Source: Rhynchopus sp. YZ270_cl-10
Taxonomy: Eukaryota
Assembly: GCA_964035575.1 (NCBI GenBank)
Contig: OZ037840.1
Location: 1,488,001-1,552,000 of the forward strand
Reading direction: 5' to 3'
Length of the DNA: 64,000 nucleotides
Shown here: positions 21,074-58,072 of the stretch, piece by piece
How positions within the stretch are numbered: the first letter of the stretch is position 1
How the letters are laid out: each line of letters starts with the position of its first letter
The notes under the pieces: model-generated
The model's input: only the letters and a program-made list of their open reading frames with translations
Databases searched by the model: none
What the model was told of the DNA's origin: nothing
Made by a program: the position numbers and the translations under genes

Positions 21074-21181
21074 CCTTGGGTGTGCGTGGGTCTTCCACTT
21101 GTACGGAAGCAAAAAAGGCAGTAGCAGCAGCAGCACACTATCCAGCATTAACCACACCAACAGCAACACCAGACACAACAG

Positions 21182-39460: not shown

Positions 39461-39882
39461 TGCATATGAACATATCGGGAGAACGGGGTCAGTCCCTCAG
39501 CCTTTCTCAAACAATCCTAGATACACTGTACTCTGGGTGGCTCTCAGTTTTGCACGAAGTCCTCGCACAACTATCATTTTATTGACAATCAACCTCCACA
39601 GGAAAAAAGTGCTGTCTGTTGTGTTACTGTGAGAAGAAGAAAATACAAACGTCTGCGGGGGGAAACAATGCATTTTTTTTTTGTACGAGTATGCAATACG
39701 TCTGGAAATGAAAGACGCGCTCGTCGATTGTCATGAGTTTTACCGTTTTCCCCTTCCCCCCTTGTGCTCCACCTCTCCACCTCTCCACCTCTCCACCGGG
39801 ATGGATGCGATCAACAAACAACAAACAACGAATAAACAAAGAAGGGGGGTATTTCATTTTCCTCTCTTTTTTTTACAACCAG

Positions 39883-39989
39883 CCACCTGATTTTTACCCC
39901 GCGCATAGGCGCGTATAGCGCGTAAAGGCTGGGAAAAATGGGTGGGGTTTGGCCTTTACGCGCCTATACGCGGGGTAAAAATCAGGTGG
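39883..39989. mobile_element. 107-bp MITE, 21-bp TIR, AACCA duplication
   Basis: CCACCTGATTTTTACCCCGCG ... CGCGGGGTAAAAATCAGGTGG. The paralogous position at ~38075 shows the empty site (ACAACCATCATCATGG). Confidence 0.85.
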
Positions 39990-40087
39990 AACCATTATCA
40001 TGGTGAAACAACTTGATTTTTTCCCAACAATCCCAACCAAACTCCCCCACCCCTCCTCCAGCACTCCCTTCTCTCCCCCCCTCCAAA

Positions 40088-41388
40088 TGGACATCACAGC
40101 GATTGACAGCGACACCGGCGACAGCATTGTCCTCTCCGTTGCGAGCACTGCGACTGTCGCGTGGCTGAAGCTGCGTCTCTGCGAGGAGTGGCGGAAGGTG
40201 CCTTTTGTTTCGAGGCTGACGATGGATGGGGTTGCGCTGGACACGACGCTTGCACTCTCAGACACGCCTCTGGGGGAAGGCGCCACGGTGCACCTCTCAC
40301 AACGTGACGTGGCCACCATGCTGTGCCCGCACACCTACCACGATACGCACCACCGCAGCGACGATGGTGCCTCTTCTAGCTACCTCTCCACCTGCGGACG
40401 GCACCTTGCACTTCTTCACGGCAACTTCCTTGAATTCTACGCCACCGACACTGCGACGCTCGAACGCACCACAACCCTCCCTGACTCTCTCGGACAACTG
40501 ACCTCCGTATCGGGGGACCAGACCTGGGGCGTCTTCTTTCGTTTCGCTGAACGCGATGTAGTGATTGCAGACCTCTCCACCTTTGCGATCCTTCTCAAAA
40601 TACCGTTTCCATTTAACGTCATTCTCCCAGACTGCAACACTTTCTTGCTTTACCAGAGAGGTTTTGGGTCGTGGTATACAAAACCTACCCATATCGCATC
40701 AGAGTCAACCATAGCGACAACAACCACATATTCCTCCAAAAATGATCCAATTGTAAGCCCCGATGGGTCCTATCTCGCTGTGTTTGGAGATGGGATTGTG
40801 GTGCACAGTGTGGGGAGTGGCGCGGTTTTAGGTCGGGTTGCTGAAAGGGGGGTAGAAATAGCTGCGTTTTCACCATGCGGGGAGAAGCTGGCAGTGTGCA
40901 TTGCAGAGGTAACTGACCCTATTAGGGTCTACAATTGGCAGGCAGGGACGGTGTTGCACAGCTTCGGTGCAGGCATCGATGTGGTCGGATGTGAAGCCCT
41001 CCTCTTCACCCCCTGCAGCAACTATCTTCTCCAAGGGGACGCCGAGGACCAGCTCGTCAATCAATGGTGTCTGCGTGACGGTAAGATCCTTACATTCTAC
41101 AACAACGTTCGCAGCCCGATTCTTTTGTCCCCGTGCTCGCGCTACATGATTGCGTACAGTGCGAGCGACGAAGTGGAGTTGAATGTAGTGCCCCTCATGC
41201 AAGAAGGGTGTGAAGCAGAGATGGCAGAGCATGAACCATGTGTGCCGCAGGGTGTGGGGGAGGTGTCTGAGATGGAGGGTGAGGGTGATGACACAGAGGA
41301 AGGTGAGGATGGTGGGGAAGGTGAGGGCAGGAGGGGTGACGGCGCAGAGGGGAGACCTGCCAAGCGGCGGAGGGTTGATAAGGAGTGA
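40088..41388 (+). CDS. Ubiquitin-like N-terminal domain plus WD40-like/beta-propeller repeats, acidic tail and C-terminal NLS-like PAKRRRV
   Basis: MDITAIDSDTGDSIVLSV..TVAWLK..L..DG..L...LSD..LGEGATVHL is ubiquitin-fold-like. Repeated VSPDGSYLAV / FSPCGEKLAV / FTPCSNYLL / LSPCSRYMIA. ORF open from ATG 40000. Confidence 0.75.
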
Positions 41389-41921: not shown

Positions 41922-43151
41922 ATGCGTGTCGCCTCGTCGCTGCTGCTGCTTGCCGGGAGTGCGTCTGCCATTGACAACGGGATAGGTCTTCTGCCCCCTA
42001 TGGGGTGGCGCTCGTGGAACTGCTACGAAGGGAATGTGAATCAGAAGCTGATGGTGGGTGCCATGGACGCTGTGACAAAGCGTACACGTACTGTTGACGG
42101 GAAGCTTACCAGCATTGCGGACCTGGGGTTCGTGAACATTGGTCTTGACGACAACTGGCAGGCGTGTGGCACTGGGCTGAACGGCTCCTTCCACGACGCT
42201 GACGGCATCCCGCTCATCAACAAGGAGAAGTTCCCTGACATGAAGGCGATGACGGACCACGGACACAGCAAGAACCTGAAGGTGGGGTGGTACATGAACA
42301 ACTGCATCTGCAGGGAGCAGAACTTCACAGGTGCGAGCTACATCGAGAAGCACATGGAGCAGTCTGCGAAGGCAGTTGCGGAGTACGGCTTCGACGGTGT
42401 GAAGCTGGATAGTTGTGGACAGTTCCGGAACCTGACACAGTGGTCACAGCTGCTGAACGCAACAGGACGCCCGATCATGATTGAGAACTGCCACCAGGGG
42501 CAGACCGTGCCTGGGCAGACGACAGGAGACGCGCCCTGCAAGGGTGACTCTGGTGTGTCGGACTGTGCGTACAACTTCTTCCGCTCGTCTGGCGACATCT
42601 ACCCCGACTGGGGCAGCATGTACAAGAACCTGCAGACGACAACAAAGTTCCAGGGCAACCCTCCCCTCTCCCGCCCAGGCAGCTGGGCGTACCCCGACAT
42701 GCTTGAGGTGGGGCGCCTTGCGAACCACGCAGAGGACCGCACCCACTTCTCTGCTTGGGTGATCACCTCGAGCCCGCTTGTTCTTGGATTTGACGTGACG
42801 AACGACGCGATTGTGAGCCGTGTGTGGGACATCATCAGCAACAAGGAGGTGCTGTCTGTGTCGCAGACGTGGGCAGGCCACCCGGGACGTCTTGTGAACG
42901 AGAAGCCTGCTGGGTTCCAGGTGTGGGGGAAGATGCTTGGTGACAAGGACCAGGCAGCACTGGCTATGAGCAACACTGCGACTGCTGCGACTGTGACGTT
43001 CACCTTCACCGACTTTGGGTTTGCAGCAACGGACACTGTGTCTGTGCGTGACCTGTACCAGCAGAAGGACCTTGTGAAGATGGCAGGCCAGTTCACCACC
43101 GACTCCATCACAGAGCACGACAGCCGCATGTACCGCTTCACGCTTGCGTAG
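41922..43151 (+). CDS. Secreted alpha-galactosidase, glycoside hydrolase family 27
   Basis: Signal peptide; DNGIGLLPPMGWRSWN, LDDNWQ, GFDGVKLDSC (nucleophile motif), RSSGDI, PDMLEVG. Confidence 0.95.
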   Translation: MRVASSLLLLAGSASAIDNGIGLLPPMGWRSWNCYEGNVNQKLMVGAMDAVTKRTRTVDGKLTSIADLGFVNIGLDDNWQACGTGLNGSFHDADGIPLINKEKFPDMKAMTDHGHSKNLKVGWYMNNCICREQNFTGASYIEKHMEQSAKAVAEYGFDGVKLDSCGQFRNLTQWSQLLNATGRPIMIENCHQGQTVPGQTTGDAPCKGDSGVSDCAYNFFRSSGDIYPDWGSMYKNLQTTTKFQGNPPLSRPGSWAYPDMLEVGRLANHAEDRTHFSAWVITSSPLVLGFDVTNDAIVSRVWDIISNKEVLSVSQTWAGHPGRLVNEKPAGFQVWGKMLGDKDQAALAMSNTATAATVTFTFTDFGFAATDTVSVRDLYQQKDLVKMAGQFTTDSITEHDSRMYRFTLA

Positions 43152-43412
43152 GTGTGGGTGGTGTGATGTGTGATGTGTGATGTGTGATGTGTGATGTGTG
43201 ATGTGTGATGTGTGATGTGTGATGTGTGATGTGTGATGTGTGATGTGTGATGTGTGATGTGTGATGTGTGATGTGTGATGTGTGATGTGTGATGTGTGAT
43301 GTGTGATGTGTGATGTGTGATGTGTGATGTGTGATGTGTGATGTGTGATGTGTGATGTGTGATGTGTGATGTGTGATGTGTGATGTGTGATGTGTGATGT
43401 GTGATGTGTGAT

Positions 43413-44023
43413 GGGGGTCTCTTTAGGATAAAATATGGGGGGAAAGGTCTTTTTTGGTTAATAGCGCCGAAAAAACGGCAGCGAGGTATGTGGTCATGAG
43501 GGCGAGACTGGGGAAACACAACACAAAATACTGATGAAGGTGGTGGTGAGATTTCCCCGTAACGTCCTCAACCAACCTTGCCGAAGCAAGTGGTAAGCAA
43601 TAACAACAAAAGGGCACGTAGCAATAGAGAAATGGTACGCGCAAAAAAAAAAAAAAAAAAAAAATATATCCATAGCGAAAAAGGGGGAGGGGGAAAAGAC
43701 TTTCTTATTCGCGACATATTTTATCCTAGAGACCCCCCTGGCGTAGCAAAGCTACTTAAACAAGTTTACAGTATGTGTGATGTGTGATGTGTGATGGGGG
43801 TCTCTTTAGGATAAAATATGGGGGGAAAGGTCTTTTTTGGTTAATAGCGCCGAAAAAACGGCAGCGAGGTATGTGGTCATGAGGGCGAGACTGGGGAAAC
43901 ACAACACAAAATACTGATGAAGGTGGTGGTGAGATTTCCCCGTAACGTCCTCAACCAACCTTGCCGAAGCAAGTGGTAAGCAATAACAACAAAAGGGCAC
44001 GTAGCAATAGAGAAATGGTACGC

Positions 44024-44059
<36 letters not shown>

Positions 44060-44165
44060 TCCATAGCGAAAAAGGGGGAGGGGGAAAAGACTTTCTTATT
44101 CGCGACATATTTTATCCTAGAGACCCCCCTGGCGTAGCAAAGCTACTTAAACAAGTTTACAGTAT
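43413..44165 (-). mobile_element. Two solo ~360-bp terminal-repeat units of the YR retrotransposon (43413-43774, 43796-44165)
   Basis: Near-identical to the repeats bounding 44453-49663; they differ mainly in poly-A length. Confidence 0.92.
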
Positions 44166-45174
44166 GTGTGATGTGTGATGTGTGATGTGTGATGTGTGAT
44201 GTGTGATGTGTGATGTGTGATGTGTGATGTGTGATGTGTGATGTGTGATGTGTGATGTGTGATGTGTGATGTGTGATGTGTGATGTGTGATGTGTGATGT
44301 GTGATGTGTGATGTGTGATGTGTGATGTGTGATGTGTGATGTGTGATGTGTGATGTGTGATGTGTGATGTGTGATGTGTGATGTGTGATGTGTGATGTGT
44401 GATGTGTGATGTGTGATGTGTGATGTGTGATGTGTGATGTGTGATGTGTGATGGGGGTCTCTTTAGGATAAAATATGGGGGGAAAGGTCTTTTTTGGTTA
44501 ATAGCGCCGAAAAAACGGCAGCGAGGTATGTGGTCATGAGGGCGAGACTGGGGAAACACAACACAAAATACTGATGAAGGTGGTGGTGAGATTTCCCCGT
44601 AACGTCCTCAACCAACCTTGCCGAAGCAAGTGGTAAGCAATAACAACAAAAGGGCACGTAGCAATAGAGAAATGGTACGCGCAAAAAAAATATATCCATA
44701 GCGAAAAAGGGGGAGGGGGAAAAGACTTTCTTATTCGCGACATATTTTATCCTAGAGACCCCCCTGGCGTAGCAAAGCTACTTAAACAAGTTTACAGTAT
44801 GGGGGTCTCTTTAGGATAAAATATGGGGGGAAAGGTCTTTTTTGGTTAATAGCGCCGAAAAAACGGCAGCGAGGTATGTGGTCATGAGGGCGAGACTGGG
44901 GAAACACCCGTCGCTCGTGCCCTGACCTGTGCCCAACTTTGACGCCACACTGAGGTAGCGTTCTCCACGTGAGAAGCATAATCTCCAATACTGTCTCATG
45001 ACAGAAAACAACTCCGAACACAAAAAATATGGCACGAAAAAACGTAACGTAGGTAAAAAACAGCCCCACGCGAAACACACGCACGAAACATCAAAAACAA
45101 CAACCTTGACTCGACCATTCGCACTCCGACGACCAGAAAAAACAAAGCCACACCCTAGAAAATAGAAAAAACAT

Positions 45175-48100
45175 CTACTGCAGGACATCGTCAGACACTC
45201 TCATCCCCGACGCCTCCTCCACGACGTGACCAAACCTGTTGGGACTCAAACTCACGCCCTGACCTGCCAGCTTCTGTCGGGACCCCCAGTCGGCGGGCAT
45301 CTCGTCGGTCTTAATCCACCTGATGTGAAGGTGTGCCTTCGCTGCGGAGAGTCGCGTGCTCATCCTCCTCAGAATGGAGTTGCCCAGGCGGGTGCGGGAG
45401 TGGCCTCTCCTGAGGACATACTTCACCGCCTCGTTGTCCACGAAAAGAACGATAGCTGTGTGGCCGCCCTCCAAAGCTGCTGCCATGCCCTTCTCAGCCG
45501 CACGCAGCTCCAACACAAACATCTCTCCAGAGGTGTGCGTCGATTCCCACCGTCCGTGCCTTTCGACGCCAGAAAAAGAGTTCTGCAGCTTCGACACCCA
45601 GCCCCAGCCTGTCGTGGACGCGTCGGTCCATACTGCGATGGAGAAATGTATCGGGGGCGGAGAGGGGAAGGGAACCGTCACACAAGTCTGAATGTTCGCC
45701 ACAGCGAAAGCTGCCAACTCCTCCTTCGTCGCAACGTGCATGGCCACGTCGTCATCCCATGACAGCTTCTTGCGGGAGACGAGTTGTGCTTTACTGCGCA
45801 CGAACTGCAAAGTGTGGCAAAGAAAACATAGCTTGAAATCCAGGACGTACGCGGCTCTGAACACAAGTCCGCATACCTTCCACCATTTTCGTAGGGAACA
45901 GGTCTCCAGCTTCAGGGTGTCATGAATGATGCGTGATGACTTTAACCTCCACTCCTCTGGTAACGAAAAAGATTGCAACGGAAGGTTCCACACTATGCCG
46001 ATGAAGTCAACGACTTCAGCCGGTTTAGCCATGGACTTCTTCACGTTTACCTCCGCACCCGCACGCTGCAGACGGTCACGCACAAAAGCCGTCTTAGCCG
46101 CCGCCTCAGCAGGATATGCACCCCACACAAAAATGTCGTCAAGGTACACAACACCCCATTTGTTCAGAATGGGGCCAAGAAAAATCTCAGAAGTGTTCTG
46201 CGCGATGTACGGCGCGTACGCAAAACCCATGGGTAGACGCGCCCATCTAAACCAACGTCCCCCAGCCTGCACACAAAAATATTTGGACACCTCGGGTGAG
46301 AGGGGGAACTGGTGGAAATACCCCTTTAGGTCGGTCTGTTGAGCAAAGCGTGCGTTTGACACCTTAAGCATTGTTGCAAGCTTGTGGGGGTTGACCAGGG
46401 AGAAAGGCTGTGGCTTGGCGATCCTTTTGTTAACAGGACGTCCATCCACCACTAGCCTCCGCAGTTGCGGGTCACTCTTCGGGACGTCAAAAACGCAAAC
46501 TGCGCCCTTCTTGCGGTCAGTCCGAGCAAGAGGAATCAATACCTTCGACTTCACGCACTCCGACACAAAAGAATTTGGGATTTTTGACTTCGGGCCAGGG
46601 AGCGGGATCGGTCCAGATAAAGCATCTGCAATCTTACGTCCGGAAGTACACCACTGCAGGAAATCAGAGTCCTTCCCTACCTCCTCAGCCATCCTGCGCA
46701 CGGCCTCCAACACGATTAGGCCCGTGGGGAAAGAATCAAGGCTTTTCTTTATGATGGGGGGGGGCTTGCAGAGCCCCACGGGGAAGTAGTCGGGGTCAGG
46801 CACCTCTATCCCCTCGTCGCAGACTGGTAGGGGATATTTCGCCCCGTTGATCAGTGCAGCAACTGCAGGGTCTTCAGCTCCTCCGTCTCCCTCATCCGTG
46901 CAGATACGTTCGTCGCGTTCAGGTATGCCGCTGTCTGCCCCACGTTGCTGTGTCGCAGGAGTAGACGCATTCTTTCGTTTGATGCCCCCTGCAGTTGAAT
47001 CGCTTGCGCCGCTCCTCTCTTGAATGAGTGCATCCACGTCCCCTTTGGCATGACCTTGCGAATGCGCTCCATCAGCGACTCGAACTCTCGTGTGTTGCCC
47101 CCCATCACGGTGTTGTGGTGTTGCACAGTTCTCCAAAAAGACACCGCGATTGCTGTTAGAGGACCCGGAGGAAGATAGATGGGGGGGCGAGCCACCAGGA
47201 CGCCCTTCTCCTTCGCAAATAGTTCTGCTCCTACCTTGATCGGCGACTCCCCTGCACAATGAATCTCGCGCCAATCCGATTTGTTCAGAAAACGTAGGTC
47301 TGGGACGCGGGACCTCGTCATGTAGGACATCGCAGCTAAAGCGGCGGCATGTTGGTCTCCGGCCTTGACAAGCTTGTTCACGCCGGTGATGACATCGGAG
47401 GGAGGAAGAGGTGGCGCCTGTCTCGGACGTACCGCCGCAGATAGTCTTCTGAGCGCCTTCTTTGCCCCCAATACACGGACCGTTGCGACCCCTCTGATCC
47501 CTCGCCGCTTGCACTCTCGCAGGATCTTGCACATGTAGCCTACTACGGAGCGGGGGGCCGCCGTACGTAGCCTGCGGTGCGCGAACTGCAGAAGATGCAC
47601 TTCCTTGCTCAGATGAGGAGCAGTTGCGCAGCCCCTCAGGAAATCGCTCCACACTCGTTGCACCTCTCCTTGGGTCGTTGGGGCAGTCGCGTGCAGGTGC
47701 AGTTCGTCCCACGGAATCCTCTCGTGCATCGCCCTCCCCAGGGCCTTTCCATCCCTGATGGAGAAAAAGTTGTGGTCGACCAAATTGCGGGGACCTCCTT
47801 TCGCTCGTGGTAGCCGCGATGCGAATCTTGTCGTTGGGGAAGGTGGTGGAGACAGATTTGGAGGAGGGCATACGCCCCATCGTAGTGGTGCCGGCTCTTC
47901 TTCCGCTTGGTGCAGGCCAACGTGTAGGCTGTCTGGGCGCAAAGCTGCCTTGTTGTTCTTGTTTTGGCGCAAAGCTGCCTTCTTGTTGTTCTCTTTTGGG
48001 CGCAAAGCTGCCTTGTTGTTTGGGCGCAAAGCTGCCGAATTGTTGACCTTTTTGTCTTTGTCTTTTATCAGGCGCGAAGCTGCCAAATTGTTTTTGTCTT

Positions 48101-48420
48101 TGTTGTTGTTGTTGTTGTTGTTGTTGTTTTTGTTCTTGTTTTTGATTTTGATTTTGTTTTTTCTCAGGCGCAACGAAGCAGCCGATGTTTTTTGTCCCAG
48201 GTGCACTGAAGCCGCTGGTTCGCTCTCCCACTTCCATCTCTCTCTGGTCAGTGGTGCCGTAGTTACTACCTGCGAGGGGCGTAGGAATGGTTCCGAAAAA
48301 ACCAGTTCGGGCGTTGGTTGGCACCTCCTCTGGAGTGCCGCGGCTTGTTTTCTGTTCTCGGACGCTTAGGTGCCCTTCCTCCCTGTGCATGAGATGTCGG
48401 AGCCTTTCTCTTCTGTCCAA
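45175..48420 (-). CDS. DIRS-type reverse transcriptase/RNase H; catalytic part ~46850-45250, long N-terminal extension overlapping the YR ORF
   Basis: RT: VFDVPK, RRLVVDGRPVN, TDLKGYFHQF, RLPMGFAYAP, VYLDD, FIGIVWN. RNase H: WTDASTTGWG, LELRAA, VDNEAV, WIKTDEMPADWGSR. True start unknown. Confidence 0.92.
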   Translation of the reverse strand: MDRRERLRHLMHREEGHLSVREQKTSRGTPEEVPTNARTGFFGTIPTPLAGSNYGTTDQREMEVGERTSGFSAPGTKNIGCFVAPEKKQNQNQKQEQKQQQQQQQQQRQKQFGSFAPDKRQRQKGQQFGSFAPKQQGSFAPKREQQEGSFAPKQEQQGSFAPRQPTRWPAPSGRRAGTTTMGRMPSSKSVSTTFPNDKIRIAATTSERRSPQFGRPQLFLHQGWKGPGEGDAREDSVGRTAPARDCPNDPRRGATSVERFPEGLRNCSSSEQGSASSAVRAPQATYGGPPLRSRLHVQDPARVQAARDQRGRNGPCIGGKEGAQKTICGGTSETGATSSSLRCHHRREQACQGRRPTCRRFSCDVLHDEVPRPRPTFSEQIGLARDSLCRGVADQGRSRTICEGEGRPGGSPPHLSSSGSSNSNRGVFLENCATPQHRDGGQHTRVRVADGAHSQGHAKGDVDALIQERSGASDSTAGGIKRKNASTPATQQRGADSGIPERDERICTDEGDGGAEDPAVAALINGAKYPLPVCDEGIEVPDPDYFPVGLCKPPPIIKKSLDSFPTGLIVLEAVRRMAEEVGKDSDFLQWCTSGRKIADALSGPIPLPGPKSKIPNSFVSECVKSKVLIPLARTDRKKGAVCVFDVPKSDPQLRRLVVDGRPVNKRIAKPQPFSLVNPHKLATMLKVSNARFAQQTDLKGYFHQFPLSPEVSKYFCVQAGGRWFRWARLPMGFAYAPYIAQNTSEIFLGPILNKWGVVYLDDIFVWGAYPAEAAAKTAFVRDRLQRAGAEVNVKKSMAKPAEVVDFIGIVWNLPLQSFSLPEEWRLKSSRIIHDTLKLETCSLRKWWKVCGLVFRAAYVLDFKLCFLCHTLQFVRSKAQLVSRKKLSWDDDVAMHVATKEELAAFAVANIQTCVTVPFPSPPPIHFSIAVWTDASTTGWGWVSKLQNSFSGVERHGRWESTHTSGEMFVLELRAAEKGMAAALEGGHTAIVLFVDNEAVKYVLRRGHSRTRLGNSILRRMSTRLSAAKAHLHIRWIKTDEMPADWGSRQKLAGQGVSLSPNRFGHVVEEASGMRVSDDVLQ
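46851..47729 (-). CDS. Tyrosine recombinase
   Basis: Catalytic pattern R (SRVPDL), K (AKEK), HSFKRGAA, LLRH, AAYL. First ATG at 47729; the frame is open to at least 48206. Confidence 0.88.
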   Translation of the reverse strand: MHERIPWDELHLHATAPTTQGEVQRVWSDFLRGCATAPHLSKEVHLLQFAHRRLRTAAPRSVVGYMCKILRECKRRGIRGVATVRVLGAKKALRRLSAAVRPRQAPPLPPSDVITGVNKLVKAGDQHAAALAAMSYMTRSRVPDLRFLNKSDWREIHCAGESPIKVGAELFAKEKGVLVARPPIYLPPGPLTAIAVSFWRTVQHHNTVMGGNTREFESLMERIRKVMPKGTWMHSFKRGAAQAIQLQGASNERMRLLLRHSNVGQTAAYLNATNVSARMRETEELKTLQLLH

Positions 48421-49384
48421 CCCCTGCTGCTGCCTTCAGGGCGGCTTTCCTGTCCGAGGAGACCCCGTTTGAGGCGGTCATGGATTTGGAGAAGGCCTGG
48501 GCCGCCTCCCATCCTTCCTTCGCCCGGATGCCTAGGTGCATCACAGAGTTGAGGAGACCGGACAGGATGTCGTTCGGTGGGGAACCTTCCAAGATGCTGA
48601 ACATGATATCCATGCTCGCCTTGATGGCATCCCTGGCGTCCCCTTGCTCCCTTGGCAGGTACATCTCGGTGAGGCGGTTGCGGAGGGTAAGCAGCTGTAC
48701 CTCCGAGAGCTCGTGCCATTTGTCCGGGACGAGCAGTACATTGTCCACTGTGAGCTTCTTGGTAGGGGCGGAAGCCTCGCCTTCGCTCTCGCTATCCCCG
48801 ATGCTCGCATCCTTCTTCTCATCCTCTGACTTGTCCTCATGTGTAGGGAGGGGGGGGGCGGGGGGGGCAGGGTGTTGTGTGTTGGAACGAGGGGTGAAGT
48901 GCACGGTGAGGCGTTCGCGCTCCTCGTCCCTCTCTGCGTCTCTCACGCTCTCCGCCGCAAACGCTTCAGCAACGGTGTTCACGGAGGCGGGAGGGGTAGG
49001 CACTTCGGGGGAGTGAGGCAGCTCGGCGTCGCCCTCCCTCACGACAGCTCCAAAAAGCTCGTCTCCCAGCCTCTTCCGGAGGACTCCAAGGAGCAAAAGA
49101 AGACGCAGACAGGGAACATCTGTCCAGTCCGAGGGCACAGTTCCCGTGACGCGTGCCAACGCAGCGCGCACGTGTTCCTCCCCGAAATCTTCCTTCTCCC
49201 CCCGGAAATCCTCAAACGTCCGGACGCACAGCGCGCCCGTGACGGACTCCCAGGCGTTTCCCAGTGCAGACTTCACGGCGTCCGACGAATCCGCAACGAT
49301 GTTCGCAACATCTCGCGACATCCGGAACGACCGTGACCCACTCTTGGCCCTGAGCGACTCCAGCGCTTCATCCATAGTGGTCAT
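48266..49384 (-). CDS. Gag-like ORF1 of the YR retrotransposon
   Basis: ~372-aa ORF in first position, with its ATG inside the 30-bp repeat core; helical core and basic C-terminus. Gag call is by position only. Confidence 0.7.
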   Translation of the reverse strand: MTTMDEALESLRAKSGSRSFRMSRDVANIVADSSDAVKSALGNAWESVTGALCVRTFEDFRGEKEDFGEEHVRAALARVTGTVPSDWTDVPCLRLLLLLGVLRKRLGDELFGAVVREGDAELPHSPEVPTPPASVNTVAEAFAAESVRDAERDEERERLTVHFTPRSNTQHPAPPAPPLPTHEDKSEDEKKDASIGDSESEGEASAPTKKLTVDNVLLVPDKWHELSEVQLLTLRNRLTEMYLPREQGDARDAIKASMDIMFSILEGSPPNDILSGLLNSVMHLGIRAKEGWEAAQAFSKSMTASNGVSSDRKAALKAAAGVGQKRKAPTSHAQGGRAPKRPRTENKPRHSRGGANQRPNWFFRNHSYAPRR

Positions 49385-49663
49385 GAGGGCGAGACTGGGG
49401 AAACACAACACAAAATACTGATGAAGGTGGTGGTGAGATTTCCCCGTAACGTCCTCAACCAACCTTGCCGAAGCAAGTGGTAAGCAATAACAACAAAAGG
49501 GCACGTAGCAATAGAGAAATGGTACGCGCAAAAAAAAAAAAAAAAAAAAAAAATATATCCATAGCGAAAAAGGGGGAGGGGGAAAAGACTTTCTTATTCG
49601 CGACATATTTTATCCTAGAGACCCCCCTGGCGTAGCAAAGCTACTTAAACAAGTTTACAGTAT

Positions 49664-50502
49664 GGGGGTCTCTTTAGGATAAAATATGGGGGGAAAGGTC
49701 TTTTTTGGTTAATAGCGCCGAAAAAACGGCAGCGAGGTATGTGGTCATGAGGGCGAGACTGGGGAAACACAACACAAAATACTGATGAAGGTGGTGGTGA
49801 GATTTCCCCGTAACGTCCTCAACCAACCTTGCCGAAGCAAGTGGTAAGCAATAACAACAAAAGGGCACGTAGCAATAGAGAAATGGTACGCGCAAAAAAA
49901 AAAAAAAAAAAAAATATATCCATAGCGAAAAAGGGGGAGGGGGAAAAGACTTTCTTATTCGCGACATATTTTATCCTAGAGACCCCCCTGGCGTAGCAAA
50001 GCTACTTAAACAAGTTTACAGTATGTGTGATGTGTGATGTGTGATGTGTGATGTGTGATGTGTGATGTGTGATGTGTGATGTGTGATGTGTGATGTGTGA
50101 TGTGTGATGTGTGATGTGTGATGTGTGATGTGTGATGTGTGATGTGTGATGTGTGATGGGGGTCTCATTAGGATAAAATATGGGGGGAAAGGTCTTTTTT
50201 GGTTAATAGCGCCGAAAAAACGGCAGCGAGGTATGTGGTCATGAGGGCGAGACTGGGGAAACACAACACAAAAATACTGATGAAGGTGGTGGTGAGATTT
50301 CCCCGTAACGTCCTCAACCAACCTTGCCGAAGCAAGTGGTAAGCAATAACAACAAAAAGGGCACGTAGCAATAGATAAATGGTACGCGCAAAAAAAATAT
50401 ATAGCGAAAAAGGGGGAGGGGAAAAGACTTTCTTATTCGCGACATATTTTATCCTATAGACCCCCCTGGCGTAGCAAAGCTACTTAAACAAGTTTACAGT
50501 AT
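49664..50502 (-). mobile_element. Two further solo repeat units (49664-50024 abutting the element; 50158-50502 slightly diverged)
   Basis: Same ~350-bp sequence; the last copy has several substitutions and indels. Confidence 0.92.
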
Positions 50503-51864
50503 GTGTGATGTGTGATGTGTGATGTGTGATGTGTGATGTGTGATGTGTGATGTGTGATGTGTGATGTGTGATGTGTGATGTGTGATGTGTGATGTGTGAT
50601 GTGTGATGTGTGATGTGTGATGTGTGATGTGTGATGTGTGATGTGTGATGTGTGATGTGTGATGTGTGATGTGTGATGTGTGATGTGTGATGTGTGATGT
50701 GTGATGTGTGATGTGTGATGTGTGATGTGTGATGTGTGATGTGTGATGTGTGATGTGTGATGTGTGATGTGTGATGTGTGATGTGTGATGTGTGATGTGT
50801 GATGTGTGATGTGTGATGTGTGATGTGTGATGTGTGATGTGTGATGTGTGATGTGTGATGTGTGATGTGTGATGTGTGATGTGTGATGTGTGATGTGTGA
50901 TGTGTGATGTGTGATGTGTGATGTGTGATGTGTGATGTGTGATGTGTGATGTGTGAAGTGGCATGTCCGTGGACGTATTGTATATTTATAGGTGAGACTG
51001 AGCACGAGAGGCTTGACTCATCTCACTACGTTTTCTCTTTTCTTTTTAGCTCTTATTACGATTTTGTGTGTGTTATTGTGAAACTCTCGTCATTCACAAA
51101 GCGCAGTTTGTGCGACTGCGCTACTTTCAAAACACAGGGAGACTGTTTTGTAGTTTGTTTACTTTGGCTGCTTTGTTCTCGATGACAAAACTGGAAACAT
51201 TTTTCCAGGATCTTCCTTGAGATCGTACTGTCGGTCATAATTGTTTTTTGTTTTTTTTGTGTTTTTTGCTACTTGGTTAACTGAGGTGTTGGTTCGGTCT
51301 CGCCCCACACCGCTTGGTTACCTTGGAGTGTCTCTTTGTTTCGCTTTCTTAGATGTGTCGTGGCGGTGTGGTGCTCTTGTGTGTGCTGCATTTGTTGTGG
51401 TCCCATGCATCTCGCGCCACGTGTCCCTTTGTTCTTTTGTCACCTCTCTCGTTATCGTGTCTTCCAGTTCGTGTGGGATGGGTAGATGCCTGTATAAGTG
51501 TACGTGTGTGTTGGTTGTCACGTAACTGTAGTCATTTGTACTATGTTTGCTAAGCTTGCTTCATCTTTGATATGTGCGTTGTACCAAACAACAAGCGTTT
51601 CTCAATAGAAGCTCTTTGCAAAGATAACGTGACAGCCAACCACATGAAGAAACCACAGCTGTCTGCCCCCCTCCCACCACTCTCCCCACCAATTCCCTCC
51701 AAATATAAATGCCGTCTTTTCATAGTTTCGTCCAGAGCTTTGCAAACGATACAACACTAAAATCGTCTTTTTCTTCCGTTCTTATTTCTCTCTCTCCCCC
51801 TCTCCCCCCCCACTTCCACCCCCGATCCACAAAAACCGACACAGAAAAAAAAAAAAAATACAAA

Positions 51865-54630
51865 ATGATTATTTCTTCCTTTGTTGTTCTTTCCGTGGCG
51901 CTGCTCCCACAGAATATCCGGGTGAAGTACATGACATCACCCTATGTTGATGGTGTAAACTTTCCTATCACATGGGAATATTCCGCCTTGGATGGCGCGC
52001 AGACACAGTCCGCGAGGCAGGTGGTCTGCTCTGTGGCAGGAAAGGTTGTGTGGGACTCTGGTGTGATCAACTCCTCGGAGCAAATCTGCGCAATCGACAC
52101 CGCACTTCCAGCCATGAGCACCGTACACACCGAAGTCCGTATTTGGAACGCCTCTGGGATCGTTGAGTCGGGCACTACCACATTCGAGACCACCTCCACA
52201 AAGGACCCTTTCAACTGGCTAGGTGCACAATGGCTCGCACGCACCGCCAACACCCCACCCAAGAACGAATGTGTCTTTTACGACCCAAACCCCACCAGCC
52301 TCTTCACCGCAACATTCCAGAATACAGCCGGAACCCCTGCGAGGATCTATCTGACCGGCCTGGGGTATTACAGTGCATGGTTAAATGGAGAGAAATTATC
52401 AACAAAACCGGAGACTTATTTAGACCCGCCACTCTCATCTGTCGCAAAACGTGTATTTTATAATGTATATAACGTTACAGAACTGCTGAAGAACGGTGAA
52501 AACACCTTATCTATTGAGGTCGGAAATGGTTGGTTCAACCCATTGCCTTTAAGGTTTTGGGGGAGAGTAAATATCAGAGATACCATGGCGATTGGGGTGC
52601 CTATGGTAAAGGCGATGCTCAAGGTGGATGGGAATACCATTGTATCGTCTCCTGACACCTTCGTTGTGTCCACTACTCCACGTATCTTCAATAATATCTA
52701 TCTTGGGGAGGTTTGGGATGGCACCTTATCAGACGGTTCACCACAACCCCCAGTAGTAGTTACACCTGATATTGGTGTTTTTGAGGTCTCCCCGATTCCG
52801 CCAATCACAGAGCAGGAAACATTAAGTACAAAGATGTTAAGTCAAAAGGAGAGCAGCTCCGAAGTCAACCCTGATTCTTTGATAGCACTGAAAAACGAAA
52901 AACTGGAGCATCAAATCGTTGTGATGGACTCTGGGAAGAACCATGCAGGGACCTGCCGCTTTGAGGTTCATTGGGGAAATGACGTTCCGTTGGGCGCCTT
53001 TGTGCGGGTTTTTGTGCGTTATGGGGAGTTGTTGAACGCAAATGGCAGTGTCAATGTGCTTACCTCGACTGCAGGGCAAATTAAAGCTGCCAACCCCATT
53101 GCACCATGCCAGCCTACCGTCGCCTTCCAGCGGGATGAGTTCCGATTTATCAAAACATCGCAGACCGATTTTTTTGAGCCCCGCTTTTCTTGGCATGGCA
53201 TGCGTTACATGGAGGCCTTCATTTACACCAACACCTCGAACACCTCTATCACATTGCAAGCAACCTGCAAGGTTCTCCAAACAGACCTTCCCATAGCATT
53301 GCGGTACAATGTCTCCGATGCCCGGCTGGATGCAACGTTGAAGCTTGCTGAAAACACCTTTGCGAGCAATTTGATGTCGGTACAAAGCGATTGCCCACAC
53401 CGTGAGCGTTTTGGGTACAGCGGGGATGCGCTTGCCGTAGGCGAAGGCCTGCTTGCGAGGTACGATATGAGCGCTTTTTATACCAAGCGGGTGGCCGACT
53501 TTATGGATGCGGTGGCTGAGAACGGAGGGTTTACGGAGACCGCACCGTACGTCGGTATTCACGATGGGTCGGTCGCAGGCAATGCTGGCCCCATAGGATG
53601 GGCTGCATACCCCCCAGCTGCTGCGCTCTGGCAGTACCGTTATTATGGAGATCTAAATGCGCTGTCCATAGCGTACCCTGCAGTACGCGCCTTCGCGACC
53701 CTTCTCGAACGCAATACATCAAACATCCTAGATGGTCTTGGCGATTGGATGCCTCTCGAAGAAACCGGAACTGGATTAACAGGAATGTATTTTCAATTCG
53801 CGACGTACCATGTTGTAGCCGATATTGCGAAGATTCTTGGTGATATAGAAACGTACAATGTATTTGTATTGAAAGCGGAGGGAATACGCAGTGAACTTAA
53901 CACAAAGTATCTGGACAATGCATCATGCGCTTATGGAAGCAAAAAAGAGGGTTTTAACGCAACGCAGACCGGGCAAGGTCTTGCGGTTTACAATGATATT
54001 GTTCCGGAGGCCTGCAAGGTGGGGGCGTTTTCGTTGTTGGTAGAGAATTTGAGGGCAGCAGAGAATGTGACGCATGCTGGAGGTGAAGGAGGTCCTGGTG
54101 CTCACATGCTGTGCGGCATGTTTGGTGTCAAATGGGTGCTTGGCGCGCTAAGTGAGAATGCAGAACAGAGCATCGCGTTGGAGGTGGTGACGCAGACGTC
54201 GTTTCCTTCCCTCCATTGGATGACGTCGAACAGTTTTGTCAACGCCACCACCATCTGGGAGGCGTGGTACGTCAGTGAGAGCACCTTTTCGCACAACCAC
54301 CCTATGTTCGGCTCCCACTACACATGGTTTCTGCAGCATCTGGTAGGGATACAGACACATCCCTCCGCTAGAGGAATGGATGTTGTGGTGTTGCGGCCAC
54401 GCCCTCCACTGCTCATGGCGCAGCGTTCGCCCTCCCTCACCGCTACCGTGAGTGGATCATATAGTACAGTGCGAGGCATCATTACCGTCTCCTGGCTACT
54501 CTCCGCAACAACCAAAGCACTGCATGTGAACATCAGCCTCCCCGCTAATATGCAGGCAGAATGTGACCTTCCGAACATGCCCTCACTTCTCCTTGGCGGG
54601 GGGCTGCATGCCTTTACGACCACACTGTGA
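51865..54630 (+). CDS. Alpha-L-rhamnosidase, glycoside hydrolase family 78
   Basis: Signal-peptide-like start; TGLGYY..WLNGE, VGNGWF, IYLGEVWD, DCPHRERFGYSGDA, GLGDW, ATTIWEAW, SHNHPMFG. Confidence 0.93.
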   Translation: MIISSFVVLSVALLPQNIRVKYMTSPYVDGVNFPITWEYSALDGAQTQSARQVVCSVAGKVVWDSGVINSSEQICAIDTALPAMSTVHTEVRIWNASGIVESGTTTFETTSTKDPFNWLGAQWLARTANTPPKNECVFYDPNPTSLFTATFQNTAGTPARIYLTGLGYYSAWLNGEKLSTKPETYLDPPLSSVAKRVFYNVYNVTELLKNGENTLSIEVGNGWFNPLPLRFWGRVNIRDTMAIGVPMVKAMLKVDGNTIVSSPDTFVVSTTPRIFNNIYLGEVWDGTLSDGSPQPPVVVTPDIGVFEVSPIPPITEQETLSTKMLSQKESSSEVNPDSLIALKNEKLEHQIVVMDSGKNHAGTCRFEVHWGNDVPLGAFVRVFVRYGELLNANGSVNVLTSTAGQIKAANPIAPCQPTVAFQRDEFRFIKTSQTDFFEPRFSWHGMRYMEAFIYTNTSNTSITLQATCKVLQTDLPIALRYNVSDARLDATLKLAENTFASNLMSVQSDCPHRERFGYSGDALAVGEGLLARYDMSAFYTKRVADFMDAVAENGGFTETAPYVGIHDGSVAGNAGPIGWAAYPPAAALWQYRYYGDLNALSIAYPAVRAFATLLERNTSNILDGLGDWMPLEETGTGLTGMYFQFATYHVVADIAKILGDIETYNVFVLKAEGIRSELNTKYLDNASCAYGSKKEGFNATQTGQGLAVYNDIVPEACKVGAFSLLVENLRAAENVTHAGGEGGPGAHMLCGMFGVKWVLGALSENAEQSIALEVVTQTSFPSLHWMTSNSFVNATTIWEAWYVSESTFSHNHPMFGSHYTWFLQHLVGIQTHPSARGMDVVVLRPRPPLLMAQRSPSLTATVSGSYSTVRGIITVSWLLSATTKALHVNISLPANMQAECDLPNMPSLLLGGGLHAFTTTL

Positions 54631-55170: not shown

Positions 55171-57309
55171 ATGGGGTGGCTCGAGGGTGTGCTGTCGCTG
55201 GATGGGACATTGGATGGGAAGGTGCGCAAGAAGCGGACACTGTTCCTGCTGTTCATGTGTGTGGTGGCAGCCTTCTCTGGGGTTGGGCTGCTCAGCTACT
55301 CCTCGCAAGGGGTGTCGGAGCGTGTGGTGGCGGTGCTGTCGCTGTTGGTGATGTTCGTGACAAGTCTGTTTGCTATTGTCTGGGTGCTGTGCAGGCGCCC
55401 TCTCGTGCAGGGATTGGTGCACGTCTCAGGAGGTGTGTTAGCGGTGTCCATCCTCTTTCAAGACCTTTCGGCACGAAGCACTTCAGACACCTCGTGGCCT
55501 TTGCTTGTGCTTGTTGTGGACTTCCTGCTTGTGATGCAAGCGAATGAGCGCTTTGTCTCCGTTCTCGTTGCTGTCACGTTGTGCTATTTGTTGCTCATAG
55601 CTTTTGAAAGTACCCTCAGGTTTGGGATGTTGGACCTGCCCGGCTTGGTGCCGCAGGAGGGTGAAAGGGGGAGGAGGGAAATCGGTTTCATAAAAGCAGA
55701 CTGCACGTCTCTCCCGTGTGCGTTGCCAGCAGGAGGGACCGTGCGGTACTTCCTGGCAGCTGCAGGGGTCTTTGTGATTGACTTCATCACAACACGAGGA
55801 TTTGCACGTGATGTTCAGGAAGAGCAGGCATCGATGGAGCGGACGATCAACGCTGTGCAGGAGATCGCCTCACTGCTTGCTGGGTACGACGTGGAGCAGG
55901 TGGCGGAGCTGCTGAAGGCGCATGAGGGTGACCTGCCTGAGGGGATGACAGCAGCATTGAGGGGATTGGAGGAGAACCTGCGGAAGTACCGTCCCTACCT
56001 CCCTTCTGCGCTGTTTGAGGTGGAGGTGGAGGACGGTGTGCAGCAGCCGACTGTGGCACCGCCTGGGCTTGACAGCGAGACAGCAACAATTGTGTTCACA
56101 GACATCCGTGCGTCGACGTCGATCTGGGAGAACGCACCTGAGGGGATGCGTGCTGGACTGCAGATCCACAACGCTGTGATGCGTGATGTGATGCGGATGT
56201 GTGGTGGGTACGAGGTGAAGACCATTGGCGACGCATTCATGATTGCTTTTGCGTCCACTTGCGACGGTGTGGCGTTTGGGTTGCGTGTGCAGGAACGTCT
56301 TTTCGAAGCAGACTGGCCCGCATCTCTGCTTGAGGATGCACCCATCTGTTCTCGTCAGGGGTCGCTGTGGGGTGGACTAACTGTTCGCATTGGTGTGAAC
56401 ACTGGCCCTGTGACTGTGGAGCAGAACACACTGACGGGACGGACAGACTACCTTGGACACACAGTGAACGTTGCTGCACGCCTTGAGAGCACATGCACAC
56501 CTGGTGCTGTGGCTTTGCCCAATGACCTGTGGAGTTCTGAGTCCTGGTCGTGCAGTGCTGTTGTTGGTGCGCCAGAAGCAGTTCACTTGAAGGGTGTGTC
56601 AGGGAGCACTTTAGTGTGCTGTGTGTGGCCTGTCTCACTTGGGGGACGAAGGGAGACACCACTTTGTGAGTCTTCTTCGCCCGCCTCCAGGCGAAGATGC
56701 TCCAGTGCAAAGCTGGTCAAGAATCAAAGTTTGTCAGCCACGTTGAGAAGTACATCGGTGGCTTCCTCCACGCACAGTTTGCTGTTGACACACCCGACCC
56801 ACCAGGTCTCCGGCACTGTGGGAGTTGTACACCTTGCAGTGGGTGACGTGGGACACAACACAGCTTTCCCACGAATGAGCTCCGGACTCACGACACTGAC
56901 GATTGCACTGGAGCAGAGTGGAGGGAGTCTGGTGACGCTGCTTGGGAACTGTGTGTGTGTTGGGTGGAACGTGTCGCGTTCTGCACCTGCACACATGGAG
57001 AACGCGATACGTTTTGTGCAGCGCATGTCTGTGAAGTCTGCACTGATCGGGGCTGGACTTGCAAGTGGTCCTGTGCAGCACGGGGATGTTGGTGCACAGA
57101 GACAGCGCTTTGTGACTGTGATGGGGGATGTTGTGCGTCGGAGTTGGGCGCTGTGCGAGGAGGCTGTGCGTGACGGGGTTGTGTGTCTGTACGAGCCTCC
57201 TGAAGGGACAACACTGCCGTCTGCACTTGAAGACGTTCTTGTACAACACAAGGGATCAAACTACAGAGTCGTCGAGCCAGACAACAAAGAACGGAACAAC
57301 GTGTTTTAG
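55171..57309 (+). CDS. Multi-TM adenylate cyclase: one intact class III domain plus a degenerate second domain
   Basis: About six hydrophobic segments. TIVFTDIRAST, YEVKTIGDAFM, RIGVNTG, DYLGHTVNVAARLE retain both Asp, Lys and Asn/Arg. Second domain LLGNCVCVGWN..GLASGPV..GDVG. Confidence 0.92.
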   Translation: MGWLEGVLSLDGTLDGKVRKKRTLFLLFMCVVAAFSGVGLLSYSSQGVSERVVAVLSLLVMFVTSLFAIVWVLCRRPLVQGLVHVSGGVLAVSILFQDLSARSTSDTSWPLLVLVVDFLLVMQANERFVSVLVAVTLCYLLLIAFESTLRFGMLDLPGLVPQEGERGRREIGFIKADCTSLPCALPAGGTVRYFLAAAGVFVIDFITTRGFARDVQEEQASMERTINAVQEIASLLAGYDVEQVAELLKAHEGDLPEGMTAALRGLEENLRKYRPYLPSALFEVEVEDGVQQPTVAPPGLDSETATIVFTDIRASTSIWENAPEGMRAGLQIHNAVMRDVMRMCGGYEVKTIGDAFMIAFASTCDGVAFGLRVQERLFEADWPASLLEDAPICSRQGSLWGGLTVRIGVNTGPVTVEQNTLTGRTDYLGHTVNVAARLESTCTPGAVALPNDLWSSESWSCSAVVGAPEAVHLKGVSGSTLVCCVWPVSLGGRRETPLCESSSPASRRRCSSAKLVKNQSLSATLRSTSVASSTHSLLLTHPTHQVSGTVGVVHLAVGDVGHNTAFPRMSSGLTTLTIALEQSGGSLVTLLGNCVCVGWNVSRSAPAHMENAIRFVQRMSVKSALIGAGLASGPVQHGDVGAQRQRFVTVMGDVVRRSWALCEEAVRDGVVCLYEPPEGTTLPSALEDVLVQHKGSNYRVVEPDNKERNNVF

Positions 57310-58072
57310 CGAGGTTACTGATGGAGGGTACAAGGTGAGAGGGACATTTTCCGATGTGACCTTGAGGGGTTGTGTCTGAAACAAACTATGTTGTCATCGT
57401 CCAAACGAGCAGCGTAGACATCGTGTCTTGTGATGAAGGTGAGCCTTATATTCTTATGTGATCGAAGGACAGACGCAACGTGGATCTCATGAACAGCATG
57501 CATTGTGCAGGTCTGAGCGGGGTTGTCTTTTACAAGCCTTCCTCTCGTTGTGTTGTCTCGTCTTGTATTGTGTGGGTGGGGTTCATATGTAGAAAGCCCC
57601 TTTAATAATCTCCATTCCCTCCCCCGAAATATGTGTGAAGAATCCTGAGCACGAACTTCAAGACTTCCCTTTACATGCGATCTGTTTACGCTTTGGGATG
57701 GACGAAACTTACGCCTTTTTTGTTATTGTTGTCTCCTGCACGTTCTCGTGGGGTCCATTAAACGGAGGCGCCCCTCCCTTTGCAATATTTACACGTCTTT
57801 TCAGGTACAGTTCCTTGACGGAATCTTCGTGTCCGAGACGGCCATCGTCTAGGTCTCGGCATAAGCACCAGTGGTGATCAAACAATGAAGTGGAAGAGAA
57901 AACAATAGGCAGGGTGGTTTGTTTGTTTTTGCGCGTTGTTGGTCTTGTAAATAATATTATCTATAACAGCTCTTACCAAGAGACACTTTTAGATGCCAAG
58001 CCTCAATTATGTTTTTGAACCACAAATGGTACCTCTCACAATACTGACGCAGGAGTTACACGTATTTACACG

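What the first reader, a model, noticed from the sequence alone, without database searches (positions are those of the whole stretch)
43161..50956. Microsatellite-targeting tyrosine-recombinase retrotransposon: intact element plus four solo units, all joined at the same ATG of (GTGTGAT)n
Seen: every left junction with the satellite reads GTGTG-ATG-GGGGTCTC and every right junction reads TTTACAGT-ATG-TGTGAT. The two head-to-tail junctions (44799, 49662) read CAGT-ATG-GGGGTC. Satellite phase is kept and there is no TSD. All three ORFs are uninterrupted and the repeats are almost identical. Known: DIRS-order elements integrate a circular intermediate with a tyrosine recombinase via short homology and without TSD; gag-YR-RT/RH order is the VIPER/TATE type; TATE targets telomeric hexamers. 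Inference: a recently active site-specific element whose recombinase uses an ATG crossover core and recognises a non-telomeric heptamer satellite. This would be a new target specificity and a candidate eukaryotic site-specific integrase.
Basis: partly seen in the sequence, partly recalled or inferred. Interest (0 to 1): 0.9.

Follow-up and report, generated by a model that had tools for sequence, protein, structure and literature searches.

The report
Repeat-inserting recombinase retrotransposon of diplonemids
An intact jumping gene and four short copies of its ends sit at the same three-letter spot (ATG) of a seven-letter DNA repeat, likely in a marine diplonemid protist; it encodes a predicted Cre-like recombinase that likely splices it in at that spot, but copies in other samples border other G/T-rich sequence, so the target is likely broader than this one repeat.

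Summary
All 8 satellite junctions and both head-to-tail junctions share one ATG, and removing the inserts leaves a pure 164-unit (GTGTGAT)n array. The element is a split-direct-repeat tyrosine-recombinase (YR) retrotransposon on the minus strand, A1-gag-YR-RT/RH-B1-A2-B2, the VIPER/TATE layout. The 350-bp units are A+B, the counterpart of SIRE. The YR folds like Cre (pLDDT 93, TM 0.72-0.74) and keeps an R-K-H-K-H-Y catalytic set. Pol copies 97-100% identical lie on 14 contigs of different length, so the family is dispersed and young. Named YR relatives are Diplonema papillatum hypothetical proteins. The RT forms its own clade, tentatively sister to one presumed VIPER-type RT. The claimed heptamer specificity is not supported: 0 of 17 junction flanks shown in public runs is the heptamer. 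They are mostly G/T-rich stretches or another minisatellite, although the tool is biased against satellite flanks. 'No TSD' cannot be shown in a periodic target. TATE already inserts at a fixed phase of a simple repeat with a short shared core. Verdict: new variant of a known kind, an apparently undescribed diplonemid VIPER-like clade with exactly mapped junctions, ready for a recombination test.

The parts
43161..50957 (+). Perfect (GTGTGAT)n array, 164 units once the inserts are removed, in five tracts (36, 3, 41, 19, 64 whole units); starts 9 nt after the stop codon of an alpha-galactosidase gene; interstitial
   Evidence: flanking genes
43411..43772 (-). Solo A+B unit U1 (SIRE-like), poly(A) 22, satellite on both sides
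43794..44163 (-). Solo A+B unit U2, poly(A) 30, three satellite units from U1
44451..44798 (-). A2-B2, the 3' split repeats of the full element (unit U3), poly(A) 8
   Evidence: A8 form also in a contig of run X1 (table 5c)
44799..44801 (+). ATG core of the B1|A2 junction (CAGT-ATG-GGGG), the inferred circle junction and crossover core
   Evidence: bridged by a 245-nt contig of run X6; contigs end or start at or next to it in runs X3, X5, X7, X8
44799..44907 (-). B1 repeat (109 nt, with the 30-nt overlap shared with A)
44734..44832 (.). 31-nt inverted arms (44734-44764 and 44802-44832, 81% complementary) that would put the junction in a hairpin loop; the same pair lies in every unit
   Evidence: fold z -5.9 and -7.0 for a whole unit
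45175..48435 (-). pol frame, 1,086 aa stop to stop (first ATG 48390, 1,071 aa): RT (YLDD at 46146) and RNase H (TDAS, ELRA, VDN); its N-terminal half overlaps the whole YR frame; no methyltransferase-type tail and no DDE integrase domain seen
46851..48365 (-). Tyrosine recombinase frame, 504 aa; Cre-like core from ATG 47729 (292 aa) with R141, K175, H234, K237, H260, Y269
48266..49375 (-). ORF1, gag-like by position only (369 aa; no Pfam match, no CCHC knuckle)
49377..49661 (-). A1 repeat (285 nt) with a 24-nt poly(T) tract on the sense strand and AG dinucleotides upstream of the gag ATG (candidate trans-splice signal)
   Evidence: role inferred
49662..50022 (-). Extra A+B unit U5 fused head-to-tail upstream of A1 (second CAGT-ATG-GGGG junction), poly(A) 21
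50156..50500 (-). Solo A+B unit U6, older or of another subfamily: 7 differences outside poly(A) 8

Best explanation
This is an intact split-direct-repeat retrotransposon (A1-gag-YR-RT/RNase H-B1-A2-B2) with four extra A+B end units, all joined at one ATG; it likely copies itself through RNA into a DNA circle that its predicted Cre-like recombinase likely crosses over into an ATG set in G/T-rich simple sequence, of which this heptamer array is likely one dense patch rather than the only target. Shown: anatomy, junctions, open frames, catalytic motifs, dispersed near-identical copies, a branch point at the ATG in other samples. Inferred: transcription and trans-splicing at the poly(T) tract of A; reverse transcription, possibly primed by the 31-nt inverted arms folding back; a circle whose B|A junction (CAGT-ATG-GGGG) is the donor site; crossover in the 3-nt core. 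Because each integration leaves an ATG at each end, further insertions at an end would give the head-to-tail units. The solo A+B units arise either as A1/A2 recombination remnants or as mini-circles resolved between two B|A junctions and inserted by the same enzyme; the data here do not separate these.
For: Junction identity 10 of 10 and a pure array after removal. Layout identical to VIPER/TATE split repeats, with SIRE = A2B2 (PMC6681497). YR: profile hits XerC-like recombinase (E 9e-4), Tn1549 Int and Cre; 9 of 28 aligned relatives hit Pfam Phage_integrase; model pLDDT 93, best matches Cre/Tre with TM 0.72-0.74; R141 27 of 28, K175 25 of 28, H234 20 of 28, H260 27 of 28, Y269 25 of 28. 15 listed pol cluster members, 97-100% identical, on 14 contigs of different length. 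8 of 23 listed runs, from 4 studies, hold half or more of the element's words. All 17 junction flanks shown part from the element between 44800 and 44808; 2 of 11 right flanks begin TGTG directly after ATG, most others are G/T-rich, and one left flank type is a TGTGAGAGCG minisatellite. A shared trinucleotide core is the published DIRS model (PMC7192593, PMC3266345).
Against: Some flanks do not fit a G/T-rich ATG target: one recurrent right flank begins GCTGTGCCCGACC, and the two readable left-flank types have GTG or AGG where the core should be ATG; these may be older copies or sister subfamilies. The window's YR on its own matches no recombinase family in Pfam and has K at the second catalytic R position (6 of 28 relatives do; 21 have R). 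Malicki et al. found DIRS-1 cDNA to be mostly linear and could not amplify the circle junction (PMC7192593). The flank sample is partial: 17 of 61 and 24 of 53 loose-end rows were shown.
Confidence: 0.68

Rival explanations
1. Strict heptamer specificity: this family's recombinase recognises (GTGTGAT)n as TATE does the telomeric hexamer, and the other flanks belong to sister subfamilies or decayed copies.
For: 4 of 4 insertion blocks in the window lie in the heptamer array in one phase. A perfect (TACCTGTG) array of 27.8 units at 27672-27893 has no insertion. Satellite-flanked contigs are likely under-reported by the read-laying tool (short overlap, repeat skipping, unshown rows). Several non-heptamer flanks are on contigs with 1-3 mismatches.
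Against: 0 of 17 junction flanks shown is the heptamer. Run X1 has a contig matching the unit end (no substitution, one 1-nt insertion) that runs from CAGT-ATG into TGTGTGGGTGAGGG, and run X7 shows TGTGTGTGGG.
Confidence: 0.15
2. Local amplification: one or two ordinary insertions at a G/T-rich 3' UTR site were multiplied, together with the repeat, by slippage and unequal crossing-over, so the shared phase is inherited and says little about targeting.
For: U1, U2, U3, U5 and the element's own repeats are identical outside poly(A), and all share one orientation. The array ends are G/T-rich sequence that could seed a heptamer. Repeat and homopolymer lengths change fast (general knowledge).
Against: U6 differs at 7 places, so there were at least two sources. 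Spacers (36, 3, 41, 19, 64 units) and poly(A) lengths (22, 30, 8, 21, 8) all vary. The family is dispersed over many contigs, and other samples break at the same ATG, so the fixed core does not depend on this locus.
Confidence: 0.14
3. The multi-unit array is an assembly artefact from collapsed or mis-joined repeats.
For: No read or contig spanning the whole array was seen; no whole genome was held for the window.
Against: Units carry distinct poly(A) lengths and one has private differences. The B1|A2 junction, the A8 allele and a fused A+B form occur in contigs of public runs. Intact genes flank the array.
Confidence: 0.03

Closest known systems
TATE (VIPER-like superfamily, order DIRS) of Leishmania braziliensis
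   Same: gag-YR-RT/RH order, A1...B1-A2-B2 repeats (PMC6681497); precise insertion inside a simple repeat, a short motif (TT) at both ends, tandem clusters (PMC2696322).
   Different: Target here is an interstitial heptamer just after a gene's stop codon, and likely other G/T-rich sequence, not telomeric GGGTTA; core is ATG; host is likely a diplonemid; RT motif is YLDD against xIDN/xLDN read by eye in the published TATE and VIPER copies; YR frame 504 aa against a 982-aa alignment for L. braziliensis TATE.
VIPER and SIRE of Trypanosoma cruzi and other kinetoplastids
   Same: Same layout and size class; SIRE equals A2+B2, as the 350-bp unit does here; overlapping YR and long RT/RH frame; YR motif HS-x-K-R-G-A also in the Crithidia fasciculata VIPER copy (read by eye).
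   Different: VIPER is not described as repeat-targeting in the papers read; here A and B overlap by 30 nt, whereas SIRE was defined with about 30 nt of its own between them; no CCHC box in gag; no named VIPER or TATE protein came up among the listed hits.
Ngaro-like and PAT-like YR retrotransposons
   Same: Split direct repeats; isolated AB repeats are reported for Cafeteria Ngaro (PMC8547959).
   Different: Their order is gag, RT/RH, then YR (Ngaro order in PMC8547959; PAT order recalled); PAT carries a methyltransferase. Here YR precedes RT/RH and no such tail follows RNase H.
DIRS1-like elements
   Same: A trinucleotide at both ends that matches the circle junction (PMC3266345, PMC7192593).
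   Different: They have inverted terminal repeats, an ICR and a methyltransferase domain; cores are mostly NTT.
CryptonV and nimavirus tyrosine recombinases
   Same: Eukaryotic YRs reported to insert into microsatellites (PMC8869645 passage; PMC10871703).
   Different: DNA transposons or large DNA viruses, without RT.
Cre recombinase of phage P1
   Same: Best structural match of the predicted YR (TM 0.72-0.74).
   Different: 13-16% identity; no palindromic arms flank the ATG core here, unlike loxP (recalled).

Membership tests
Order DIRS (YR retrotransposons) | RT plus RNase H | tested here: met
   RVT_1 E 3.5e-14; RNase H residues TDAS, E, D conserved in 8 of 8 aligned proteins; Pfam support for RNase H is weak (RVT_3 E 0.09)
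Order DIRS (YR retrotransposons) | Tyrosine recombinase instead of DDE integrase or endonuclease | tested here: met
   no rve domain
Order DIRS (YR retrotransposons) | No target-site duplication; shared short core | tested here: inconclusive
   One ATG per junction, but a periodic target hides duplications of 3, 10 or 17 nt
Order DIRS (YR retrotransposons) | Circular DNA intermediate | not testable with these tools
   The B|A junction exists in genomic copies anyway
VIPER-like (VIPER/TATE) | ORF order gag, YR, RT/RH with overlap | tested here: met
VIPER-like (VIPER/TATE) | Split direct repeats A1...B1-A2-B2 | tested here: met
VIPER-like (VIPER/TATE) | No methyltransferase or hydrolase domain | tested here: met
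   pol ends about 30 residues after RNase H; no Pfam hit there
VIPER-like (VIPER/TATE) | RT falls in the VIPER/TATE clade | tested here: inconclusive
   The 11-row clade (96/99) is sister to P0105 at 85/90, unstarred, on a long branch. P0105 is only presumed VIPER-type from its YIDN motif and source name; no named VIPER or TATE protein was in the tree.
TATE proper | Insertion in telomeric GGGTTA repeats | tested here: not met
   Target is (GTGTGAT)n between two genes; no run of TTAGGG in the window
DIRS1-like | Inverted terminal repeats, ICR, methyltransferase | tested here: not met
   Direct split repeats; only a 31-nt imperfect inverted pair inside the unit
Ngaro-like / PAT-like | RT/RH upstream of YR | tested here: not met
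   YR core lies upstream of the RT core; RT does not group with the DIRS-type or integrase-less rows
SIRE-like non-autonomous element | Equals A+B of the autonomous element | tested here: met
SIRE-like non-autonomous element | Moves on its own, in trans | not testable with these tools
   Exact junctions fit both a remnant and a mini-circle origin

The most novel reading that the evidence does not exclude
Diplonemids carry a radiation of VIPER-like retrotransposons (at least six families in what appears to be one assembly) whose Cre-like recombinases integrate at a 3-nt core inside simple repeats. The enzyme also resolves its own circle into 350-bp A+B mini-circles that it re-inserts without reverse transcription, so that one short junction (CAGT-ATG-GGGG) is a portable donor site: a compact eukaryotic integrase for microsatellite safe harbours, with family-specific repeat targets.
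Probability: 0.25. Interest if true: 0.8.

Novelty: new variant of a known kind. Interest (0 to 1): 0.52.

Why it matters
Malicki et al. 2020 state that the specificity of the DIRS-1 recombinase had not been tested experimentally, and Ribeiro et al. 2019 leave open whether SIRE moves or is a remnant. This locus gives an intact, multi-copy VIPER-like element with donor and target junctions mapped to the base, a confident Cre-like model and natural 350-bp mini-substrates, so both questions become directly testable. It also extends VIPER-like elements to a likely diplonemid clade that the searches made here did not find described, and shows a TATE-like habit away from telomeres. It is not a new class of system.

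Tried and rejected
No whole genome was held for the window, so flanks of the other copies could not be tabulated. A 22-nt unit-end pattern found 0 matches in metagenome, prokaryote-genome and viral contigs. The RT alignment found 2 distant loci in metagenome contigs (L001, 30% identity, inside the clade; L002, 25%, not in the tree) and none in the other two collections; L001 is too short to show ends. No RNA holder was listed. Single-sequence folding of the YR failed (pLDDT 39); the alignment-based model was used. A word-based search with the YR found only its own cluster. Pfam found nothing for gag. Depth is higher over the repeats than over the ORFs in all 4 runs, but the tool says depth is no copy number, so it was not used as a count. 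A telomeric reading was rejected: genes on both sides, no TTAGGG run. DIRS1, Ngaro and PAT membership were rejected on layout. A loxP-like palindromic core was looked for by eye and not seen. Tree rows left out: P0132 and P0101 (no RT core found by my pattern) and L002. The YR tree is FastTree only, with a long-branch warning, and was used only to place the two D. papillatum proteins inside the clade. Earlier findings of the scan: none returned. Literature searches for a description of this clade returned none; the library lacks most subscription papers and Repbase. In the D. papillatum genome paper the 7 held supplements do not contain the heptamer; its repeat section in Additional file 1 may not be among the files seen, and the .fas alignments of Ribeiro et al. 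could not be read.
Full report
OBSERVATION. The region is as described. On the plus strand it reads: 36 heptamers, unit U1 (43411-43772), 3 heptamers, U2 (43794-44163), 41 heptamers, U3 (44451-44798), a 4,863-nt coding element (44799-49661), U5 (49662-50022), 19 heptamers, U6 (50156-50500), 64 heptamers. All 4 left and 4 right satellite junctions and both head-to-tail junctions share one ATG. Removing each insert with one ATG leaves a pure array of 164 units. Two cautions apply. ATG stands at both ends of each insert, and a 7-nt periodic target would hide a 3-, 10- or 17-nt duplication, so 'no TSD' is not shown. There are four insertion blocks, not five independent events. U1, U2, U3, U5 and the element's ends are identical outside a poly(A) tract; U6 differs at 7 places.

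ANATOMY. The coding element begins with the first 109 nt of the unit and ends with its last 285 nt; the two parts overlap by 30 nt. On the sense (minus) strand the unit is therefore A+B and the block reads [A-B]-A1-gag-YR-RT/RH-B1-A2-B2. This is the split-direct-repeat layout that Ribeiro et al. describe for VIPER and TATE, in which SIRE equals A2+B2 (PMC6681497; I read parts 1-5 of 9 of the text and the first part of two supplements). A holds a 24-nt poly(T) tract followed by AG sites ahead of the gag ATG, a likely trans-splice signal (inference from euglenozoan biology). A 31-nt inverted pair joins the end of B to the inside of A. It folds far better than shuffles (z -5.9 across the junction; z -7.0 for a unit; 0 of 200 and 0 of 100 shuffles as good) and would place the ATG junction in a loop. 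No palindrome flanks the core itself.

PROTEINS. Pol has an RT domain and RNase H residues conserved in 8 of 8 aligned relatives. The middle frame has no recombinase match on its own. An exhaustive search gave 32 relatives, and 28 sequences were aligned. Their profile hits a XerC-like recombinase, Tn1549 Int and Cre; 9 of 28 hit Pfam Phage_integrase. The model has pLDDT 93 and matches Cre best. R141, K175, H234, H260 and Y269 are conserved. The second catalytic arginine is K237 here and in 6 of 28; the same HS-x-K-R-G-A is readable by eye in the C. fasciculata VIPER copy. The pol frame stays open across the 292-codon YR core, where 9-13 stops are expected (0 of 5,000 synonymous shuffles under each of three codon usages). 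Four sister families also have 1,035-1,102-aa pol frames, though the extension is poorly conserved as protein. The overlap is thus kept by selection; long overlap is known in this order (PMC6681497).

HOST AND FAMILY. Two YR relatives are Diplonema papillatum hypothetical proteins (P0061, P0066) and fall inside the clade. The nearest Atlas clusters for RT/RH are euglenozoan, on 3 records each. The host is likely a diplonemid; the species was not determined. Valach et al. mention TATE-like ORFs in D. papillatum and an expanded orthogroup labelled TATE (281 members) but did not characterise the elements (PMC10161547; passages, section 8 and supplement searches). The pol cluster has 16 members; the 15 listed are 97-100% identical and lie on 14 contigs of different length, possibly from more than one assembly. 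In an RT tree of 27 rows the 11 relatives form a clade (96/99), sister to P0105 at 85/90 on a long branch, apart from DIRS-type and gypsy rows. P0105 is presumed VIPER-type from its YIDN motif and source name. The clade has YLDD in 9 of 11, where the three VIPER/TATE copies I read by eye have DN. So the layout is VIPER-like, and phylogenetic membership is tentative.

TARGET TEST. 11 of 23 listed runs hold part of the element, 8 of them half or more. I laid 7 of these 8 (four studies) on stretches holding the B1|A2 junction. A 245-nt contig of run X6 bridges the junction with no difference, and run X7 shows a fused A+B form, so neither is an artefact of this assembly. Many contigs end or start at 44798-44802, as expected if copies diverge at the ATG. 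Among the loose-end rows shown (17 of 61 and 24 of 53), 17 distinct rows lie at the junction: 11 right flanks and 6 left flanks. None is the heptamer. Two right flanks begin TGTG straight after ATG (X1: TGTGTGGGTGAGGG; X7: TGTGTGTGGG). Others are G-rich (TAGGGG, GGGGTGTGTGTGGG, GGGGGAGGGAGGG), one runs into a TGTGAGAGC repeat, and one recurrent type (GCTGTGCCCGACC) is not G/T-rich. On the left, four contigs of X8 come from a TGTGAGAGCG minisatellite with GTG in the core position, three runs share a flank with AGG there, and two rows are an unreadable mix. This sample is biased: satellite-flanked contigs overlap the unit only briefly and repeat rows can be dropped, and the runs may be other strains. 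It still shows that near-identical ends occur outside (GTGTGAT)n.

MECHANISM. Most likely (0.68) the element follows the DIRS-order model: an RNA copy is reverse-transcribed, the split repeats restore both ends, and the recombinase crosses the B|A junction into a genomic ATG. A trinucleotide shared by circle junction and target is the published model (PMC7192593 and PMC3266345, passages; PMC9210276, passages); the circle itself was not captured for DIRS-1. The preferred context is likely G/T-rich simple sequence. The heptamer array offers about 160 perfect sites just downstream of a gene and has collected four blocks. Each insertion leaves an ATG at both ends, which would allow the head-to-tail stacking seen at 49662. 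Solo units may be A1/A2 recombination remnants, as proposed for Cafeteria Ngaro (PMC8547959, passages), or mini-circles resolved between two B|A junctions. Rivals are strict heptamer specificity (0.15), local amplification (0.14) and misassembly (0.03).

COMPARISON AND NOVELTY. TATE inserts precisely within telomeric hexamers, with TT at both ends, in tandem clusters (PMC2696322, section 8). CryptonV and nimavirus recombinases insert into microsatellites (PMC8869645 and PMC10871703, passages), and an active Chlamydomonas Crypton uses a short shared motif (PMC9977147, passages). A 2025 survey lists VIPER and TATE for trypanosomatids (PMC12278014, passages). It works like TATE but is not TATE: the target is interstitial, the core is ATG, and the proteins form a separate, likely diplonemid clade that my searches did not find described. 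Verdict: real feature, new variant of a known kind, interest 0.52, lowered from 0.9 because the principle has precedent and the heptamer specificity did not survive the partial test.

Noticed in passing
window 17087-23284 (-): Apparently intact LINE: 700-aa ORF1 and 1,353-aa ORF2 with endonuclease, RT and RNase H (ingi/L1Tc-like domain order; the name is recalled).
   Followed up: partly
window 27672-27893 and 1-49: Other perfect short-period arrays: (TACCTGTG) 27.8 units without any insertion, and (TCTGGGTA) cut by the window start.
   Followed up: no
window 46851-47729 (-): The pol frame is kept free of stops across the whole recombinase core (0 of 5,000 shuffles), and four sister families have equally long pol frames; how pol translation starts is unknown. 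A run of six T at about 48297-48302 lies where all three frames overlap.
   Followed up: partly
window 44683-44690 against 49528-49551: The sense-strand poly(T) tract is 8 nt in A2 but 24 nt in A1; a weaker splice signal in A2 could let transcripts run through to B2 (speculation). The 8-nt form also occurs in run X1.
   Followed up: partly
   Followed up: partly
protein P0221: A D. papillatum YR relative has four closely numbered accessions on one contig, suggesting a tandem cluster of elements in a culturable model species.
   Followed up: no
runs X5 and X8, junction 44800-44808: Unit ends adjoin a second tandem repeat, TGTGAGAGC(G/C), with GTG in the core position.
   Followed up: partly
window 41922-43151 (+) and 51709-54630 (+): Uninterrupted alpha-galactosidase and alpha-L-rhamnosidase ORFs flank the array; 7.8 kb of repeat and element fill the first gene's likely 3' UTR region.
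   Followed up: partly
window 55171-62330 (+) and 5322-8438 (+): Three tandem membrane proteins sharing an N-terminus (the first has an adenylate/guanylate cyclase domain) and a further long receptor-like ORF.
   Followed up: no
window 38293-41388 (+): Near-duplicate gene pair (330 and 462 aa) of unknown family.
   Followed up: no
window 32552-32624 and 35314-35459: Clusters of a 10-nt palindromic unit CCAGATCTGG.
   Followed up: no
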